From a virus (taxonomy: Duplodnaviria; Heunggongvirae; Uroviricota; Caudoviricetes), in IMG/VR virus record IMGVR_UViG_2563366820_000001, positions 1-16,099 of that record: DNA of 16,099 bases. One strand, 5' to 3'. A program made the position numbers and the translations under genes. Position 1 is the first letter of the stretch. Each line of letters begins with the position of its first letter. Below the pieces are notes generated by a model, which was given only the letters and a program-made list of their open reading frames with translations, was not told the origin of the DNA and did no database searches. Shown here one piece after another: positions 2,826-15,500 of this stretch.

Positions 2826-2896
2826 CTGGTTGAGTATACAGTAGTAGACTTTGAGCGATTAAGAAAAGGCTGTGTCTAGGGTCGCTCCCGAAAATC

Positions 2897-2951
2897 CGCA
2901 CACCTCTGCGGACTGGCACAGCCACTACGGTAGAGGGCGCAGAGGTGTGCG
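2897..2951 (+). promoter_or_regulatory. Perfect 14-bp inverted repeat CGCACACCTCTGCG (2897..2910) / CGCAGAGGTGTGCG (2938..2951), 27-nt spacer; second arm contains the AGAGGTG Shine-Dalgarno of the downstream ORF
   Basis: Reverse-complement identity verified base by base; the ATG at 2953 follows arm 2 directly. Confidence 0.5.
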
Positions 2952-2952
2952 T

Positions 2953-3723
2953 ATGGTTGATATTCATGCCGAATTAAATGAATATAAAAAAGAGTTTATT
3001 TATTTACGTGATTTTCTTGATGATGTATTTAAAGTTGTTGATGCTAATATTTCAGAAGTCATTACCTGGATACTCAAGAGAATAAATACAGTAAATCCAG
3101 GTATTACCCTGTACACAGTAAATTCATTAAATGAGGTGGAACTTTATTCTTCGGATCCGTTTGAGTGGAGATCTGATTTTAACTTTCTTTATGCAAAACT
3201 GGATACGGTTAGGGAGCGTGGTTGTTTACCTTGTGAGAGGGATGAGAGTGGTTTTCTGGTATCTGGTTATTGGGAAGATGCCGAATTTGAGGCAATGGGA
3301 TTCAGAAGAAATGAAATTTTCGAAATTTTCCCAGAAATCCTTGACGGGTTAATGAATCTGGAATGTGCTGACTCTTCTGAAAATAACGAGGCGCAAGGAA
3401 GCAATATTGAACATAAAGAGTTGCGTACAGATGATGATTTTTTATCCCGAATTGCAATGCTGGAAAAAGAAAATGAATCGTTAAGGGAGCGGGTAAATCA
3501 GTTAGAAAAGGAGCGCCCGATTTTGCTAAGGGCGTATCGTGATGATGACCCATTGTATCTGGCTATCGATATTAGAAACAGAGAGTGGGCCAATTACGAC
3601 CCAGAGAATGATCGCGCAACCAGGGGAAACCAGGGCGCGATTACTACTGAACTTGAAAAACGAGGTTTTACCTCCCGACAGGCCGCATCTATTGAGCTTG
3701 TCGCCTGTCCTATCAAACGATGA
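2953..3723 (+). CDS. Hypothetical protein (256 aa from ATG 2953; ORF track allows GTG at 2872), AT-rich N-terminal half, coiled-coil-like segment IAMLEKENESLRERVNQLEKER
   Basis: Long ORF with SD AGAGGTG 6 nt upstream of ATG 2953; codon composition markedly more AT-rich than the flanking int and alpA; no family recognised. Confidence 0.55.
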   Translation: MVDIHAELNEYKKEFIYLRDFLDDVFKVVDANISEVITWILKRINTVNPGITLYTVNSLNEVELYSSDPFEWRSDFNFLYAKLDTVRERGCLPCERDESGFLVSGYWEDAEFEAMGFRRNEIFEIFPEILDGLMNLECADSSENNEAQGSNIEHKELRTDDDFLSRIAMLEKENESLRERVNQLEKERPILLRAYRDDDPLYLAIDIRNREWANYDPENDRATRGNQGAITTELEKRGFTSRQAASIELVACPIKR

Positions 3724-3762
3724 AGCCTTACCCTAGTGATATCTCATGTTTTGTTCGCGTCT

Positions 3763-3841
3763 CACCCTAAGGGTAATCAGACCTCACCCTTAGGGTATTT
3801 TTGTATGCTTTCCCATCAATTTTACTATTACCCTTAGGGTA
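3763..3841 (+). promoter_or_regulatory. Three copies of a palindromic motif ACCCT(A/T)AGGGTA (3763..3776, 3785..3797, 3830..3841) upstream of alpA; candidate operator array
   Basis: Motifs read directly; ACCCTAAGGGT and ACCCTTAGGGT are reverse complements of each other. Confidence 0.5.
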
Positions 3842-3943
3842 AAAATATTCCCGATTACCATTAGGCATGAGGGTATGAAAATATTCGTTATTTCTGTGCC
3901 ATGATTACCTCGTCAAATTGAGTAGACGTTATGAGGTAAATAT

Positions 3944-4141
3944 ATGTCAAATACGCTTATTCGTTTAACGGAAGTTCAGCGTAGAACTGGATATAGCAAG
4001 GCATGGATTTATCGCCTTATGGGGCAAGGTAAATTTCCTGCATCAGTTAAAATTGGCTCGCGAGCGATTGCTTTCGTTGAGAGTGAAATTGACGAGTGGA
4101 TTAATCAGCGTATTGCGGAATCACGCGGAACAGCTACCTGA
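3944..4141 (+). CDS. alpA: AlpA-family phage transcriptional regulator / excisionase-like HTH protein
   Basis: 65-aa product MSNTLIRLTEVQRRTGYSKAWIYRLMGQGKFPASVKIGSRAIAFVESEIDEWINQR matches the AlpA pattern (L+EV...G.S+..IY.L...G.FP..VK.G.R...F.E.EI.EWI). Confidence 0.8.
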   Translation: MSNTLIRLTEVQRRTGYSKAWIYRLMGQGKFPASVKIGSRAIAFVESEIDEWINQRIAESRGTAT

Positions 4142-4219
4142 TTAAATGGCTACGGGGCCAGAAGTCCCAGCTATCCACCAGCAAATAAAAAGTAACTTAA
4201 TTCGATAGCAGGAGTTTTT

Positions 4220-5020
4220 ATGAAACTGCGAAAAACGCCCGTACAGGGGCAGGGATTCGTTCGGCCTGAAAACCAGAGCCAACAAAATTTCGGCGAAATT
4301 ATCCCGGTTATTTCCGGCGTTATTGGCGGGCGTGAAACCAATATTGTTAGCGCCAGAGCGTTGCATAAGGCGCTGGGTGTGAAGCGTGATTTCACAACCT
4401 GGATTAAAGGACGCATTGATGAGTACGGATTTAAAAAGGGCGTGGATTTTGAATTCGTAGAAAATTTGACCTCCCCCAATCCGGTGAGCGCAAAATCTCG
4501 CCAACGTGTAGAGCACGACTACCTGAGCACTATCAACATGGCGAAAGAACTGGCGATGGTCGAACGCACCGAACAGGGCCGCGCCGTTCGTCAGTACTTC
4601 ATCAAATGCGAGGAAGAGCTACACAAGGTTGCGCCTGTACGTTCCGCAGCGTTACGCCGGGAACTGAAAGCCCGTATCACAGTTGCCAGCTACTTTAAGC
4701 CAATGTGTGCCGCGCTGGAGGCGTACCGGGCTGAACTGGGTAAAAACACGCTCCAGCACCATTACACCACGGAAGCCAATATGCTGGCGCGTATCGTGCT
4801 GGGTGGCATGACTGCAAAACAGTGGGCGCAGGCGAACGGCATTACAGGCGAACCACGCGACCACATGAGCACGTTGCAGCTTGAGCACCTTTCTTACCTT
4901 GAGCAGAGCAATATCACGCTGATTGAGTTAGGCCAGGACTACCACCAGCGGAAGGCTGAATTAATTCGTCTTTCGCAGCGTTGGTTAGCCCGTCGCATGG
5001 AGGAAAACAGCCATGTGTAA
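4220..5020 (+). CDS. Phage antirepressor-like protein (AntA/AntB-type N-terminal domain)
   Basis: 266-aa ORF with AGGAG SD; segment ARALHKALGVKRDFTTWIKGRIDEYGFKKGVDFEF resembles the AntA/AntB antirepressor domain signature; called by eye, not by search. Confidence 0.55.
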   Translation: MKLRKTPVQGQGFVRPENQSQQNFGEIIPVISGVIGGRETNIVSARALHKALGVKRDFTTWIKGRIDEYGFKKGVDFEFVENLTSPNPVSAKSRQRVEHDYLSTINMAKELAMVERTEQGRAVRQYFIKCEEELHKVAPVRSAALRRELKARITVASYFKPMCAALEAYRAELGKNTLQHHYTTEANMLARIVLGGMTAKQWAQANGITGEPRDHMSTLQLEHLSYLEQSNITLIELGQDYHQRKAELIRLSQRWLARRMEENSHV

Positions 5021-6344: not shown

Positions 6345-6659
6345 ATGAAAAAGAAAAATTCTGGCTTTACTGCCAGCGGTCTCTCTCGGCCTGAAATTCG
6401 CCCCGGCGATATTTTCCGGGATAAATACGGCAGTCAGATAACGGTAAAAACGGTGAGTGCTTATCGTGTGACCTATATCCGCGAAGGGTATGCGCATCCC
6501 TGCGTGTCGTCACATATGCGCTTTGAAAGGGAATTCATCCTTGTAAGTAAAGCGCCACCAGCAGAATTAAGCGACATCGACAAAATCATGAGCGTCACGG
6601 GCGCGGAACGCATCAGGACAGTACGTGAAATTATTCGTGAGCGGGGAGGTAAGAAGTGA
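6345..6659 (+). CDS. Hypothetical protein (104 aa)
   Basis: ORF with ATG 4 nt after the previous stop; stop overlaps the primase GTG start (GTGA). Confidence 0.5.
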   Translation: MKKKNSGFTASGLSRPEIRPGDIFRDKYGSQITVKTVSAYRVTYIREGYAHPCVSSHMRFEREFILVSKAPPAELSDIDKIMSVTGAERIRTVREIIRERGGKK

Positions 6660-14275: not shown

Positions 14276-14606
14276 GCGGAGCGTTACGGTAAGGCTACAG
14301 CCAAGCCAAACATTAAGCCTAAGGGTAAGGTTTTTTGTTGCAGGTGGCATTAATTTGGATGTTGATTTAAGGAGCATTTTTACTGAGACGGCCTGTTCGG
14401 GGTAACTTTTTTGTATGCCATTCACTTGTATGAGAGCTGTACTACGAAATAGGTTGGCATGGTGGGGAGAGCATTCTGTACTGTTATTGAATAACACTAT
14501 CGTTTTTTATTCCTTTTGGTTATTAAGTGGTGTGCGTTAAGACATGGTTTTCTTTATGTTTTTCATGTATATATTGCTTTTTAACTCAATAAGGAAACAC
14601 TGATAA

Positions 14607-15500
14607 ATGGCAAGACCAAAAAAATTAACTTATGGGGCGGTGAATATAACAATGCATCCCCACTCGCCAGAAAAATATGTAGAATTGTTCAGAATGGCAA
14701 GAAAAAACGCGAGAAATGTTAATTTGAGGGGGGACTCTTTCGCGACTTTATCACACTTTTATCCTTACAGGAAAGATCAGGTAGTTAGTGAACCTTTTGA
14801 AGGGGAAATTCTAAAGTATACAGATATTGATGTTGATGGAGATTGGTTCGATATTGTAAAGAAAGACATTGCCTCAGATGAGCAAAAGGAAAGGATAAGT
14901 ATACCTGAGAATTTAAAACCAAATGTGGCTCGATTCTCTTTTGTTTTTCTACCTGCCAGCCATCTTTTAGTTTATGAGATGCAGGACAAAGGTCGGCATC
15001 TTACATCAAAACAAATAGAAAATTTTCTGAATGGAATATTTTCTCATGAGAGAATTATAGAGAAGTTTGGGAAGATTAATGTTACAATATTAACCGAGCC
15101 AGATAACGTAGAACGTATGCTTTCTTTAAAAGGCATTACGTGTATAAATATGGTTACTCGACGTCCTAACCCAGATGATCTCGCTTCTGCAGAAAGTATT
15201 ATGCAAAAGCGTTTCAAACGTATTGGCGTTATTGAAGAAGATAAAACATATAAATCTGAGCGTGGTCAGGAAATTAAACCTGATAGTGAGTTAAAGCAGG
15301 ATGCTCTTATTGCTTCGAGAAATGGCGAAGTTAGCATACGTAGGATTAATGAGGCGGGATTAGTTGAGGTTCATGCCTCAAGCGATTTACCACTTCAAAG
15401 GGTTGAATCATATGATTCTGACGTAACATCAGTTACTGAGCTATTGTTATTAAGAGCAAAATCTTTAGCAGATGAGTTTAAGAGGCTTCTGAGAAAGTAA
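14607..15500 (+). CDS. Hypothetical soluble protein (297 aa), first gene of a translationally coupled two-gene cargo cassette; candidate defense component
   Basis: ATG with AAGGAAA SD; AT-rich; no Walker A, HTH or other motif I can recognise; acidic cluster YTDIDVDGDWFDIVKKD; stop overlaps the next start (TAATG). Confidence 0.75.
   Translation: MARPKKLTYGAVNITMHPHSPEKYVELFRMARKNARNVNLRGDSFATLSHFYPYRKDQVVSEPFEGEILKYTDIDVDGDWFDIVKKDIASDEQKERISIPENLKPNVARFSFVFLPASHLLVYEMQDKGRHLTSKQIENFLNGIFSHERIIEKFGKINVTILTEPDNVERMLSLKGITCINMVTRRPNPDDLASAESIMQKRFKRIGVIEEDKTYKSERGQEIKPDSELKQDALIASRNGEVSIRRINEAGLVEVHASSDLPLQRVESYDSDVTSVTELLLLRAKSLADEFKRLLRK

What the first reader, a model, noticed from the sequence alone, without database searches (positions are those of the whole stretch)
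3763..3841. Palindromic ACCCT(A/T)AGGGTA operator array upstream of alpA
Three copies of a 12-bp near-palindromic motif occur within 80 bp, just upstream of the AlpA-family regulator gene. Such arrays are characteristic binding sites for a dimeric regulator and may be the control point for island induction.
Basis: seen in the sequence. Interest (0 to 1): 0.45.

Follow-up and report, generated by a model that had tools for sequence, protein, structure and literature searches.

The report
Operator array tied to unknown regulator
The three palindromes are real and belong to a conserved, helically phased set of protein-binding sites in front of the master switch gene (alpA) of a phage-satellite island, but they travel with the uncharacterised gene just upstream, not with alpA, which points to a new candidate regulator of island induction.

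Summary
Observation confirmed. ACCCT(A/T)AGGGTA occurs exactly at 3764-3775, 3786-3797 and 3830-3841, far above chance. The conserved core is the 11-bp palindrome ACCCTNAGGGT. The window is a PICI-like satellite at tRNA-Thr: int, an unnamed gene I call orfX (2953-3723), the array, alpA, antA, primase.

In relatives with AlpA 74-100% identical, the rest of the intergenic region diverges but the motif recurs 1-5 times. Spacings are only about 22, 33, 43-44, 54-55 or 65 bp (period about 10.75 bp). The proximal strict site lies 107-109 bp before the alpA ATG in 26 of 43 array types.

Among 84 distinct alpA upstream regions, the motif is present in all 47 that have an orfX homologue upstream and in none of the 37 that lack one. 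The 37 include islands whose AlpA is 97% or 100% identical. Integrase and antA do not correlate. Islands without orfX carry other genes at that position, each with its own palindromes.

OrfX has a variable N-terminus, a coiled coil and a conserved C-terminal helical domain. It has no Pfam or PDB match and no phage homologue.

Best reading: an operator array for OrfX at the alpA promoter, probably repressive. Binding and its sign are inferred, not shown. Sites 1 and 2 may also form the int-orfX terminator.

The parts
3764..3774 (.). Site 1: ACCCTAAGGGT, centre 175 bp upstream of the alpA ATG
   Evidence: Exact palindrome. Together with site 2 it forms the distal 22-bp pair.
3786..3796 (.). Site 2: ACCCTTAGGGT, centre 153 bp upstream of the ATG, followed by ATTTTTGT
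   Evidence: As RNA, sites 1 and 2 pair into an 11-bp stem (-19.1 kcal/mol, z -3.3).
3830..3840 (.). Site 3: ACCCTTAGGGT, centre 109 bp upstream of the ATG; the positionally conserved promoter-proximal full site
   Evidence: The proximal strict site lies at -107 to -109 in 26 of 43 unique arrays. CCCTNAGGGT is invariant in the alignment of 10 diverged relatives.
3730..3740 (.). Degenerate copy ACCCTAGTGAT (left half-site only), 7 bp after the orfX stop codon
   Evidence: 73% identity to the reference repeat. Function uncertain.
3857..3874 (.). Promoter-proximal element ACCATTAGGCATGAGGGT. Its equivalents in relatives are the near-palindrome ACCCTCATGCCTGAGGGT and the perfect palindrome CCATTAGGCCTAATGG. 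Its right half-site AGGGT abuts the -10-like hexamer.
   Evidence: Conserved block in alignment A3. Present only in orfX-type cassettes.
3874..3879 (+). Inferred -10 hexamer TATGAA of the alpA promoter (TATGAT or TATATT in relatives). No good -35 hexamer.
   Evidence: Conserved position and in the Photorhabdus loci. The consensus scan found no strong sigma-70 promoter. This is an inference; no transcription start site data exist.
2953..3723 (+). orfX: 256-aa uncharacterised protein with a variable N-terminal domain, a coiled coil (about residues 160-187) and a conserved C-terminal helical domain (about residues 190-256, ending ...IELVACPIKR). Proposed binder of the array.
3944..4141 (+). alpA (PF05930, 65 aa), the regulated gene and first gene of the rightward island operon
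   Evidence: E 2.4e-19. Its role as master activator is taken from PMC6092414 and PMC11773190.
3905..3939 (+). Leader stem-loop that pairs the alpA Shine-Dalgarno sequence (UUACCUCGU with AUGAGGUAA). It belongs to the alpA control region but is not part of the orfX cassette.

Best explanation
The three palindromes are the strongest members of an operator array with core ACCCTNAGGGT. The array lies between the stop codon of orfX and the alpA promoter of a PICI-like phage satellite integrated at tRNA-Thr.

Inferred mechanism:
- OrfX dimerises through its coiled coil, and its conserved C-terminal helical domain reads the two ACCCT half-sites.
- Dimers on sites set at multiples of about 10.75 bp sit on one face of the helix and bind cooperatively. 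Occupancy extends to the weaker promoter-proximal element (3857-3874), which fills the spacer and touches the -10 hexamer.
- This keeps alpA, and hence excision and replication of the island, off.
- The variable N-terminal domain is the likely input domain, for example for a helper-phage protein, that relieves the control.

Shown: the motif, its phasing, its conservation, and its exclusive association with orfX. Inferred: that OrfX binds, that it represses rather than activates, and what its input is. Sites 1 and 2, with the T-run that follows them, may additionally act as the terminator of the int-orfX transcript.
For: 1. The motif is real and non-random.
2. Phylogenetic footprint. In a blind scan of IMG/VR for two cores 5-35 bp apart, 37 of 62 loci lie directly upstream of AlpA homologues of 74-100% identity (plus L044, an orfX-linked locus cut at a contig end). 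There the motif recurs although the rest of the spacer is unalignable. The proximal site is at -107 to -109 in 26 of 43 array types, and CCCTNAGGGT is invariant in alignment A3.
3. Helical phasing. Strict-site spacings fall only at 22-23, 32-34, 42-44, 54-55, 65 and 76 bp. Rayleigh R is 0.95 at a period of 10.75 bp. Copy number changes through 33-bp tandem units that preserve the phase.
4. Exclusive association with orfX. Of 84 unique alpA upstream regions, 47 have orfX and the motif, 37 have neither, and none is discordant. Two AlpA proteins are 100% identical between an orfX+/array+ island and an orfX-/array- island (L154 vs L153; L165 vs L163). AlpA at 97% identity (L113-L117) has no motif. 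EcCIMP1 has no orfX and no motif. Integrase and antA do not correlate with the motif (17/12/19/16).
5. OrfX homologues in Photorhabdus, Xenorhabdus, Cedecea, Sodalis and Pasteurellaceae are each followed by motif variants (TTACCCTGATAGTAA, TTACTATCAGGGTA, TTACTATGATAGTAA) and then by an AlpA-like gene that is only 20-28% identical in Pasteurellaceae. Variation in the protein segment TRGNQ / IPSQ / APKA parallels the half-site change from ACCCT to ACTAT.
6. The architecture fits a dimeric DNA binder: a coiled coil plus a conserved 65-aa helical C-terminal domain, with at least three unrelated N-terminal domains.
7. Islands without orfX carry other genes in the same slot, each with its own palindromes before alpA (ACCGCAATTGCGGT twice; ATGGTGG half-sites). 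One of these genes shares the OrfX C-terminal domain (hhalign probability 87%, E 3.7e-6) but has a different motif.
8. Position. The right half-site abuts the inferred -10 hexamer. In Photorhabdus cinerea a single site abutting TATATT makes up nearly the whole spacer.

Against: orfX and the array are physically adjacent, so perfect co-occurrence could reflect inheritance as one cassette rather than a protein-DNA pair. The compared loci are not phylogenetically independent.

The promoter and transcription start are predicted only, and the scan found no good sigma-70 promoter. Repression versus activation is therefore open. Functional PICIs such as EcCICFT073 and EcCIMP1 work without any such gene, so OrfX cannot be a universal master regulator.
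Confidence: 0.55

Rival explanations
1. AlpA autoregulatory sites: AlpA, known to activate its own promoter in other PICIs, binds the palindromes.
For: AlpA activates PalpA in EcCICFT073 and behaves as a positive autoregulator in EcCIMP1 (PMC6092414 and PMC11773190). The array lies in the alpA promoter region. AlpA's HTH segment is conserved in all array-bearing islands.
Against: Identical or 97%-identical AlpA proteins occur with completely different upstream regions that lack even a loose version of the motif. EcCIMP1, with the same HTH segment, has no motif. The only sequence shared by all close alpA homologues is the last 25-50 bp of the leader. From general knowledge, not tested here: AlpA/Xis-type winged-helix proteins are typically monomers that bind direct repeats.
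Confidence: 0.07
2. The sites are bound by a helper-phage or host factor that switches alpA on. orfX is merely linked, or does something else such as acting as a co-factor or defence gene.
For: Helper phages induce alpA transcription through an unidentified factor (PMC6092414). Cassette linkage alone could produce the co-occurrence. The weak -35 suggests an activator-dependent promoter.
Against: No phage record or viral contig other than the satellites themselves carries the array. No phage encodes an OrfX relative. A host or phage factor would not explain why every alternative cassette gene comes with its own distinct palindromes, nor why the motif drifts in parallel with the OrfX C-terminal domain from Enterobacterales to Pasteurellaceae.
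Confidence: 0.15
3. The elements act as nucleic-acid structure rather than protein sites. Sites 1 and 2 form a hairpin followed by a U-run, giving an intrinsic terminator that insulates alpA from int-orfX read-through.
For: The 11-bp stem has a free energy of -19.1 kcal/mol (z -3.3) and is followed by AUUUUUGU. The common E. coli variant folds at -23.9 kcal/mol and is followed by U7. The centre bases of the first site pair are complementary in 11 of 25 array types, against 6 of 38 for other pairs. No other terminator lies between orfX and alpA on the + strand.
Against: It does not explain site 3, the 33-bp tandem copies with identical centres, the fixed -109 position, or the phasing at multiples of 10.75 bp. 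The U-run is absent in most diverged relatives. The most frequent E. coli type has a G-G centre mismatch. Any two palindromes of the same sequence pair automatically. The sub-threshold Rfam ssNA-helicase match scored 20.6 against a gathering score of 41.5 bits. This is best seen as an added role for sites 1-2, not an alternative.
Confidence: 0.1
4. OrfX binds the array but as an activator or sensor-activator of alpA (class I/II or MerR-like spacer binding) rather than as a repressor.
For: The evidence for the protein-operator pairing is the same as in the best explanation. In addition, the alpA promoter lacks a recognisable -35, a full site lies about 50 bp upstream of the inferred start, and PICIs without orfX stay silent without a protein repressor.
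Against: The proximal element occupies the spacer and touches the -10 hexamer, the usual position of a repressor. In Photorhabdus cinerea a single site lies there. The domain order is the reverse of MerR proteins.
Confidence: 0.2

Closest known systems
SaPI Stl master repressor and its operators (Gram-positive PICIs)
   Same: A satellite-encoded regulator gene sits next to int and controls the promoter that starts the island's excision-replication programme. The DNA-reading part is conserved and is joined to a highly variable domain, which in Stl binds different helper-phage proteins. Regulator and target sites are exchanged between islands.
   Different: There is no sequence or fold relationship. 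Stl has an N-terminal HTH and is transcribed divergently from the operon it represses; OrfX is co-directional with alpA and its conserved domain is C-terminal. Repression and a phage-protein input are not shown for OrfX. Gram-negative PICIs were reported to lack a known repressor (PMC6092414).
Immunity cassettes of lambdoid phages (repressor plus phased multipartite operators such as CI with OR1-3/OL1-3)
   Same: Multiple dyad-symmetric sites in helical phase overlap or flank a promoter. Binding is cooperative. The regulator and its operator are swapped as a module between otherwise similar elements.
   Different: The protein family, motif and geometry differ. Here the operator follows the 3' end of the regulator gene instead of lying between divergent promoters, and no autoregulatory copy was found upstream of orfX.
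AlpA positive autoregulation in EcCICFT073 and EcCIMP1
   Same: The same gene (alpA), the same position in the island and the same role as induction switch. The alpA promoter is the point where helper-phage signals enter.
   Different: Those islands have no gene between int and alpA and no ACCCTNAGGGT motif. No AlpA binding site has been published in the searchable literature.
P4 / P4-like satellite immunity (CI/C4 RNA with isrK/seqA targets)
   Same: It also controls the rightward early operon of an enterobacterial satellite. C4 and isrK RNAs are present in related islands (EcCIMP1, L120, L125, L139).
   Different: That system is RNA-based transcription termination downstream of alpA. The window has no C4 or isrK match. 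The array here is double-stranded-DNA-like, palindromic and phased.

Membership tests
Bacterial operator array for a dimeric DNA-binding regulator | Dyad-symmetric sites, repeated within a promoter region | tested here: met
   Three exact 11-bp palindromes plus degenerate copies lie between 214 and 70 bp upstream of the alpA ATG.
Bacterial operator array for a dimeric DNA-binding regulator | Sites conserved in diverged relatives while flanking DNA is not (phylogenetic footprint) | tested here: met
   The core is invariant across AlpA relatives of 74-100% identity from several genera; the spacers are unalignable.
Bacterial operator array for a dimeric DNA-binding regulator | Spacing in helical register (cooperative binding on one face of the helix) | tested here: met
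   Spacings fall only at 22-23, 32-34, 42-44, 54-55, 65 and 76 bp. R is 0.95 at a period of 10.75 bp. The arrays are related by descent, so this is not an independent sample.
Bacterial operator array for a dimeric DNA-binding regulator | Overlap with or defined position relative to the core promoter | tested here: inconclusive
   A conserved half-site abuts a conserved -10-like TATGAA/TATGAT/TATATT. However, no sigma-70 promoter passed the scan and no transcription start site data exist.
Bacterial operator array for a dimeric DNA-binding regulator | Demonstrated binding of a cognate protein | not testable with these tools
   Needs EMSA, footprinting or ChIP. The only computational proxy is the 47/0/0/37 co-occurrence with orfX.
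AlpA (PF05930) autoregulatory binding site | The site accompanies AlpA orthologues that share the DNA-reading helix | tested here: not met
   37 upstream regions of close AlpA homologues, two of them with a 100% identical protein, lack the motif.
Integrase arm-type or excisionase (RDF) sites of an att region | Located within about 200 bp of the att core; usually direct repeats; co-vary with the integrase | tested here: not met
   The array is about 2.3 kb from the tRNA-Thr attL (tRNA at 1369-1444). The sites are palindromic. Near-identical integrases occur with and without the motif.
Rho-independent terminator | G+C-rich hairpin immediately followed by a U-run at the end of a transcription unit | tested here: inconclusive
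   The site 1-2 hairpin (-19.1 kcal/mol) plus AUUUUUGU lies 40-80 nt after the orfX stop. It has an 11-nt loop, and the U-run is kept in E. coli lineages only. It covers two of the sites at most.
SaPI Stl-type master repressor system | N-terminal HTH repressor, divergently transcribed next to int, de-repressed by binding a helper-phage protein | tested here: not met
   OrfX is co-directional with alpA, its conserved domain is C-terminal, and it has no HTH Pfam match. Binding of a phage protein is not testable here. The resemblance is functional and architectural only.
Gram-negative PICI (context of the finding) | int, alpA and a primase/replicase in one orientation, integrated at a specific chromosomal site, with no phage structural or lysis module | tested here: met
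   The window holds tRNA-Thr, int (PF00589), AlpA (PF05930), AntA, a D5-type primase, ProQ and PerC, all rightward. The experimentally mobilised EcCIMP1 occupies the same tRNA-Thr site next to proA. Mobilisation of this particular island was not tested.
Rfam RF03070 ssNA-helicase RNA | Score at or above the gathering threshold | tested here: not met
   20.6 bits against a threshold of 41.5, E 0.57. The match rests on the UAAGGG/CCCUUA arms only.
Replication-origin iterons | Direct repeats next to the pri/rep gene | tested here: not met
   The sites are palindromes and lie 2.8 kb upstream of the primase gene at 6656-8407.

The most novel reading that the evidence does not exclude
OrfX founds an unrecognised class of satellite-encoded regulators with a new small helical DNA-binding domain. 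The slot between int and alpA in enterobacterial and Pasteurellaceae PICI-like islands is an exchangeable 'immunity cassette': a regulator gene, its cognate phased operators and the alpA core promoter. On this reading it is the Gram-negative counterpart of Stl, with the variable N-terminal domains acting as sensors for different helper-phage proteins. That would answer, for this subfamily, the open question of how Gram-negative PICIs are kept silent and how helpers induce them.
Probability: 0.35. Interest if true: 0.75.

Novelty: new variant of a known kind. Interest (0 to 1): 0.6.

Why it matters
Induction of Gram-negative PICIs is known to pass through alpA transcription. The cis elements and the factor that senses the helper phage are still unknown (PMC6092414, PMC11773190), and no repressor has been described.

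This analysis supplies a precise cis element: a motif, its phasing and its position relative to the promoter. It also supplies a specific, cloneable candidate trans factor from a family of about 100 sequence clusters with no annotation. A further regularity emerged: different islands with the same AlpA carry different gene-plus-palindrome cassettes in the same slot.

Each of these points can be tested directly with EMSA, reporter fusions and an orfX deletion. If confirmed, it would give a regulator-operator pair orthogonal to known ones and a handle on the helper specificity of satellites that carry virulence and defence genes.

Tried and rejected
- Pseudomonas aeruginosa AlpA and its binding element (GGGACG, between -35 and -10). 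That AlpA is a larger, Q-like antiterminator unrelated to the 65-aa PF05930 protein, so it is not applicable.
- Literature search for the motif itself (four centre variants). Only eukaryotic primer or oligonucleotide hits were found.
- Pfam, PHROGs, NCBIfam and PDB sequence searches for OrfX. Only coiled-coil noise was found, such as bZIP at E 0.002.
- tblastn of OrfX and blastn of the array against 50,697 phage records gave no match.
- The Rfam ssNA-helicase hit on sites 1-2 is below threshold and was rejected.
- The simple sigma-70 scan found no promoter in 3600-4300. The -10 assignment therefore rests on conservation only.
- An IHF site in the 44-bp gap (CCATCAATTTTAC) does not fit the consensus WATCAANNNNTTR on inspection.
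- The 1-mismatch copy at 14316-14327 is isolated and has no partner, so I treat it as chance.
- The Salmonella houtenae island (AlpA 61% identical) has neither the motif nor orfX. This is consistent with the main result but not discriminating on its own.

Full report
**1. Observation**

Reading 3400-4300 and a pattern search confirm exact ACCCTWAGGGTA at 3764-3775, 3786-3797 and 3830-3841. With up to two mismatches the window has 9 matches on both strands, against 1.31 expected; 0 of 200 dinucleotide shuffles reach 9.

The repeat finder gives start-to-start spacings of 22 and 44 bp. It also adds two weaker copies, at 3727-3741 and 3854-3865.

The symmetric core is the 11-bp odd palindrome ACCCTNAGGGT.

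**2. Context**

The window starts in proA. It then contains, all on the + strand:
- tRNA-Thr (1369-1444)
- a tyrosine integrase (1611-2825)
- an unnamed ORF, annotated in a 98.7%-identical E. coli locus as a 256-aa hypothetical protein equivalent to window 2953-3723; I call it orfX
- the array
- alpA (3944-4141; PF05930, E 2.4e-19)
- an AntA/Bro-type gene, an Icd/Ash-like gene, DUF4222, a D5-type primase, ProQ/FinO and PerC

This is the organisation of Gram-negative phage-inducible chromosomal islands (PICIs). The experimentally mobilised island EcCIMP1 occupies the same tRNA-Thr site next to proA.

According to PMC6092414 and PMC11773190:
- AlpA is the activator required for induction.
- AlpA stimulates its own promoter.
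- alpA transcription is switched on by the helper phage through an unidentified factor.
- No repressor is known.

I found no published binding site, and the motif does not occur in the searchable literature in any relevant context.

**3. Conservation**

E. coli relatives fall into groups that share only part of the intergenic region. All of them keep the motif, with the centre base free (A, T, G or C). They carry 3-5 copies. Copy number varies through tandem duplication of a 33-bp unit.

I scanned IMG/VR blind for two cores 5-35 bp apart, which returned 62 loci. Of these, 37 lie immediately upstream of an AlpA homologue of 74-100% identity; one further locus (L044) is orfX-linked but cut at a contig end. 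The others are unrelated repeats with 17-19 bp spacing.

In the diverged relatives the intergenic DNA cannot be aligned except for three things:
- the motif copies
- a proximal block
- the last roughly 45 nt of the leader

The proximal strict site is centred 107-109 bp before the ATG in 26 of 43 distinct arrays. Spacings between strict sites take only the values 22-23, 32-34, 42-44, 54-55, 65 and 76 bp. That is multiples of about 10.75 bp (Rayleigh R 0.95). The arrays are related by descent, so this is not an independent sample, but no out-of-phase spacing was seen.

This is the signature of protein-binding sites placed on one face of the helix.

**4. Who binds?**

I retrieved 80 loci by AlpA similarity (77-100% identity). 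I added the earlier loci and collapsed them to 84 distinct upstream regions. I then scored two things: a loose form of the motif (AC[CT][CA]TNA[GT][GA]GT, about 0.006 expected by chance per 400 bp) and the presence of an OrfX C-terminal homologue upstream.

| | motif present | motif absent |
|---|---|---|
| orfX present | 47 | 0 |
| orfX absent | 0 | 37 |

The motif-less class includes:
- AlpA proteins 97% identical to the window's (L113-L117)
- two AlpA proteins that are 100% identical to ones found in orfX+/array+ islands (L153 vs L154; L163 vs L165)
- EcCIMP1, which has no gene between int and alpA and whose AlpA aligns at 81% with an identical HTH segment; it has no motif

The integrase C-terminus is near-identical in both classes. 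The downstream antA gene is uncorrelated with the motif (17/12/19/16). The array therefore tracks orfX and nothing else in the neighbourhood.

OrfX homologues found independently in one-genome-per-species contigs come from Kluyvera, Pantoea, Raoultella, Photorhabdus, Xenorhabdus, Cedecea, Sodalis, Atlantibacter and several Pasteurellaceae. Each is followed by the motif or a drifted version of it (ACCCTGATAGT, ACTATCAGGGT; ACTATGATAGT in Pasteurellaceae) and then by an AlpA-like gene. In Pasteurellaceae that gene is only 20-28% identical to the window's AlpA. The drift in the half-site parallels changes in the OrfX segment TRGNQ / IPSQ / APKA. That is a hint, not a test.

**5. The slot is a cassette**

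Islands that lack orfX carry other genes between int and alpA, each followed by its own repeats:
- A 253-aa coiled-coil protein with two copies of ACCGCAATTGCGGT 21 bp apart (L120, L142).
- A 243-aa protein with (A)ATGGTGG half-sites, one of which again abuts a -10-like TATTTT/TATATT (L113, L121, L139, L161).
- A 338-aa protein with TTTGACATGACA...TGTCATGTCAAA (L125).

The 243-aa protein shares the OrfX C-terminal domain (hhalign probability 87%, E 3.7e-6) but differs in the last helix and has a different DNA motif.

The exchanged unit runs from just after int to within 25-50 bp of the alpA ATG. It comprises the gene, its repeats and the core promoter. This modularity is what is expected of regulator-operator pairs and is hard to reconcile with a host or phage factor.

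**6. The protein**

OrfX relatives form a small family:
- 75 clusters at 90% identity, all named 'hypothetical', with no Pfam domain.
- 107 representatives at 50% identity among 1.84 billion proteins.
- None in 50,697 phage records.

The alignment shows at least three unrelated N-terminal domains, or a short 150-aa form. All contain a shared GFRR motif, a heptad-rich segment, and an invariant C-terminal domain (DDPLxLAIxIRNxEWxxYDPENDRxTRGNQxAI...QAxSIELVACPIKR).

A coiled-coil dimer that presents two copies of a small DNA-reading domain fits an 11-bp palindrome.

**7. Promoter geometry and sign of regulation**

Downstream of site 3 and about 18 unconserved bp lies a conserved element. Its forms are:
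- in most relatives, (A)CCCTCATGCCTGAGGG(T), a 16-bp palindrome with one mismatched pair
- in the Raoultella-like lineage, the perfectly compensated CCATTAGGCCTAATGG
- in the window, the hybrid CCATTAGGCATGAGGG (3858-3873)

Its right arm, AGGGT, runs straight into TATGAA/TATGAT. In Photorhabdus a full site runs into TATATT. I therefore place the -10 hexamer at 3874-3879 and the transcription start near 3886-3890.

On that numbering:
- Site 3 is centred near -52.
- Sites 2 and 1 are centred near -96 and -118.
- The proximal element fills the -35/-10 spacer.

That placement favours repression by occlusion, with the strong upstream sites acting as cooperative anchors. However, the absence of a -35 leaves an activator model open. 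I put repression at roughly twice the likelihood of activation.

**8. RNA-level overlay**

Sites 1 and 2 have complementary centres (A and T), so they form a perfect 11-bp stem (-19.1 kcal/mol, z -3.3) followed by AUUUUUGU. The common E. coli variant folds at -23.9 kcal/mol and is followed by U7. No other + strand terminator separates orfX from alpA.

Centre-base complementarity is enriched in the first pair (11 of 25 array types, against 6 of 38 for later pairs). However, the U-run is lineage-restricted, and the hairpin cannot account for site 3, the tandem copies or the phasing. I regard a terminator role for sites 1-2 as a plausible second function (about 40%), not as the explanation of the array.

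**9. Comparison with known systems**

Functionally the arrangement resembles two known systems: SaPI Stl repressors (a regulator next to int, a conserved DNA-reading part joined to a variable sensor part) and lambdoid immunity cassettes (phased multipartite operators swapped together with their repressor). It is not a member of either, because there is no homology, the domain order is reversed and the gene is co-directional with its target.

It is not the AlpA autoregulatory site: that membership test failed. It is not an integrase arm or RDF site, being 2.3 kb from attL, palindromic and uncorrelated with int. It is not an iteron set.

Pseudomonas AlpA and its ABE are irrelevant, because that is an unrelated Q-like protein.

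**10. Verdict**

The likely binder is the overlooked upstream gene rather than AlpA or a phage protein.

This is a new variant of a known kind. It is of real interest to satellite biology, because it turns the open question of how these islands are silenced and induced into a set of simple experiments. All mechanistic steps beyond sequence association remain inferred.

Noticed in passing
window 3905-3939 (arms 3905-3913 and 3931-3939); also the leaders of L113, L120, L125, L126, L131, L138, L147 and L069: A stem-loop in the alpA leader pairs the Shine-Dalgarno sequence. The arm sequences differ between island types but stay complementary (CCUCGUAA/UUACGAGG, CACCUU/AAGGUG, GCUCCUGUAG/CUACAGGAGC, GUCUCCCGU/ACGGGAGAC). 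The probability that the SD is paired is at least 0.95 in 12 of 16 leader types, with a mean of 0.89 against 0.66 when the 5' part is shuffled. The hairpin is present with and without orfX, which suggests a separate translational control of alpA.
   Followed up: partly
window 2869-2936 (+), between the int stop and the orfX start: An Rfam RF02996 'int-alpA RNA' match (48.4 bits, gathering score 35.8). The same motif follows int in both orfX+ loci (L002, L071, L079) and orfX- loci (L120, L125). It therefore belongs to the int end or to the leader of whatever cassette gene follows. The consensus U-run is replaced here by CACUACGGUAGAGG, which runs into the orfX ribosome-binding region.
   Followed up: partly
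L120 1385-1500, L142, L113 1246-1500, L121, L139, L161, L125, L128: Islands with near-identical int and AlpA carry other genes in the int-alpA slot, each with its own repeat set: ACCGCAATTGCGGT twice at 21 bp; ATGGTGG/CCACCA half-sites; TTTGACATGACA..TGTCATGTCAAA; TTCCAAAA direct repeats. The 243-aa L113-type protein shares the OrfX C-terminal domain (hhalign probability 87%).
   Followed up: partly
window 3858-3873 and the equivalent positions in L026, L038, L040, L055 and L071: A second conserved dyad lies directly upstream of the -10-like hexamer. It is CCCTCATGCCTGAGGG in most relatives and the fully compensated CCATTAGGCCTAATGG in L055, L025 and L073. The window and the common E. coli type have a non-palindromic hybrid, with the left arm of one form and the right arm of the other. 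It is unclear whether OrfX binds it in a different half-site register or whether another factor such as AlpA does.
   Followed up: partly
L005 2440-2560, L037, L102 (E. coli relatives): Copy number of the proximal site varies from 1 to 3 through tandem duplication of a 33-bp unit (CACCCTTAGGGTAGATTTCCTCCCGATTACCAT). This is three helical turns, so phase is preserved.
   Followed up: yes
whole window; compare L070 (EcCIMP1), L120, L125, L139: The window has no C4 or isrK (P4-type immunity RNA) match at Rfam gathering score, whereas EcCIMP1, L120, L125 and L139 (none of which has orfX) have both downstream of alpA. L002 (orfX+, 5 kb) also showed none. A possible inverse relation between RNA immunity and the orfX cassette was not examined systematically.
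   Followed up: no
window 14316-14327: A single 1-mismatch copy (AGCCTAAGGGTA) lies in the intergenic region before the DUF4747 gene (14607-15500). It has no partner site and is probably chance.
   Followed up: partly
L082-L086, L089 (Pasteurellaceae bacterium Macca): At least six near-identical copies of an orfX-like gene occur in one genome. Each is followed by TTACTATGATAGTAA, by a GGGGTAATAG..CTATTACCCC inverted repeat, and by an AlpA-like gene. These are multiple related islands, or one repeated element.
   Followed up: no
whole window versus E. coli complete genomes: No complete E. coli genome covers more than 72% of the window in one place. The island is a mosaic whose right part (the capsid-associated DUF2213 region, a small-terminase-like HTH gene at 12531-13055, and DUF4747) varies between strains. 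A longer GTG-started ORF (2872-3723) overlaps the int-alpA RNA motif and is probably not the true start of orfX.
   Followed up: no
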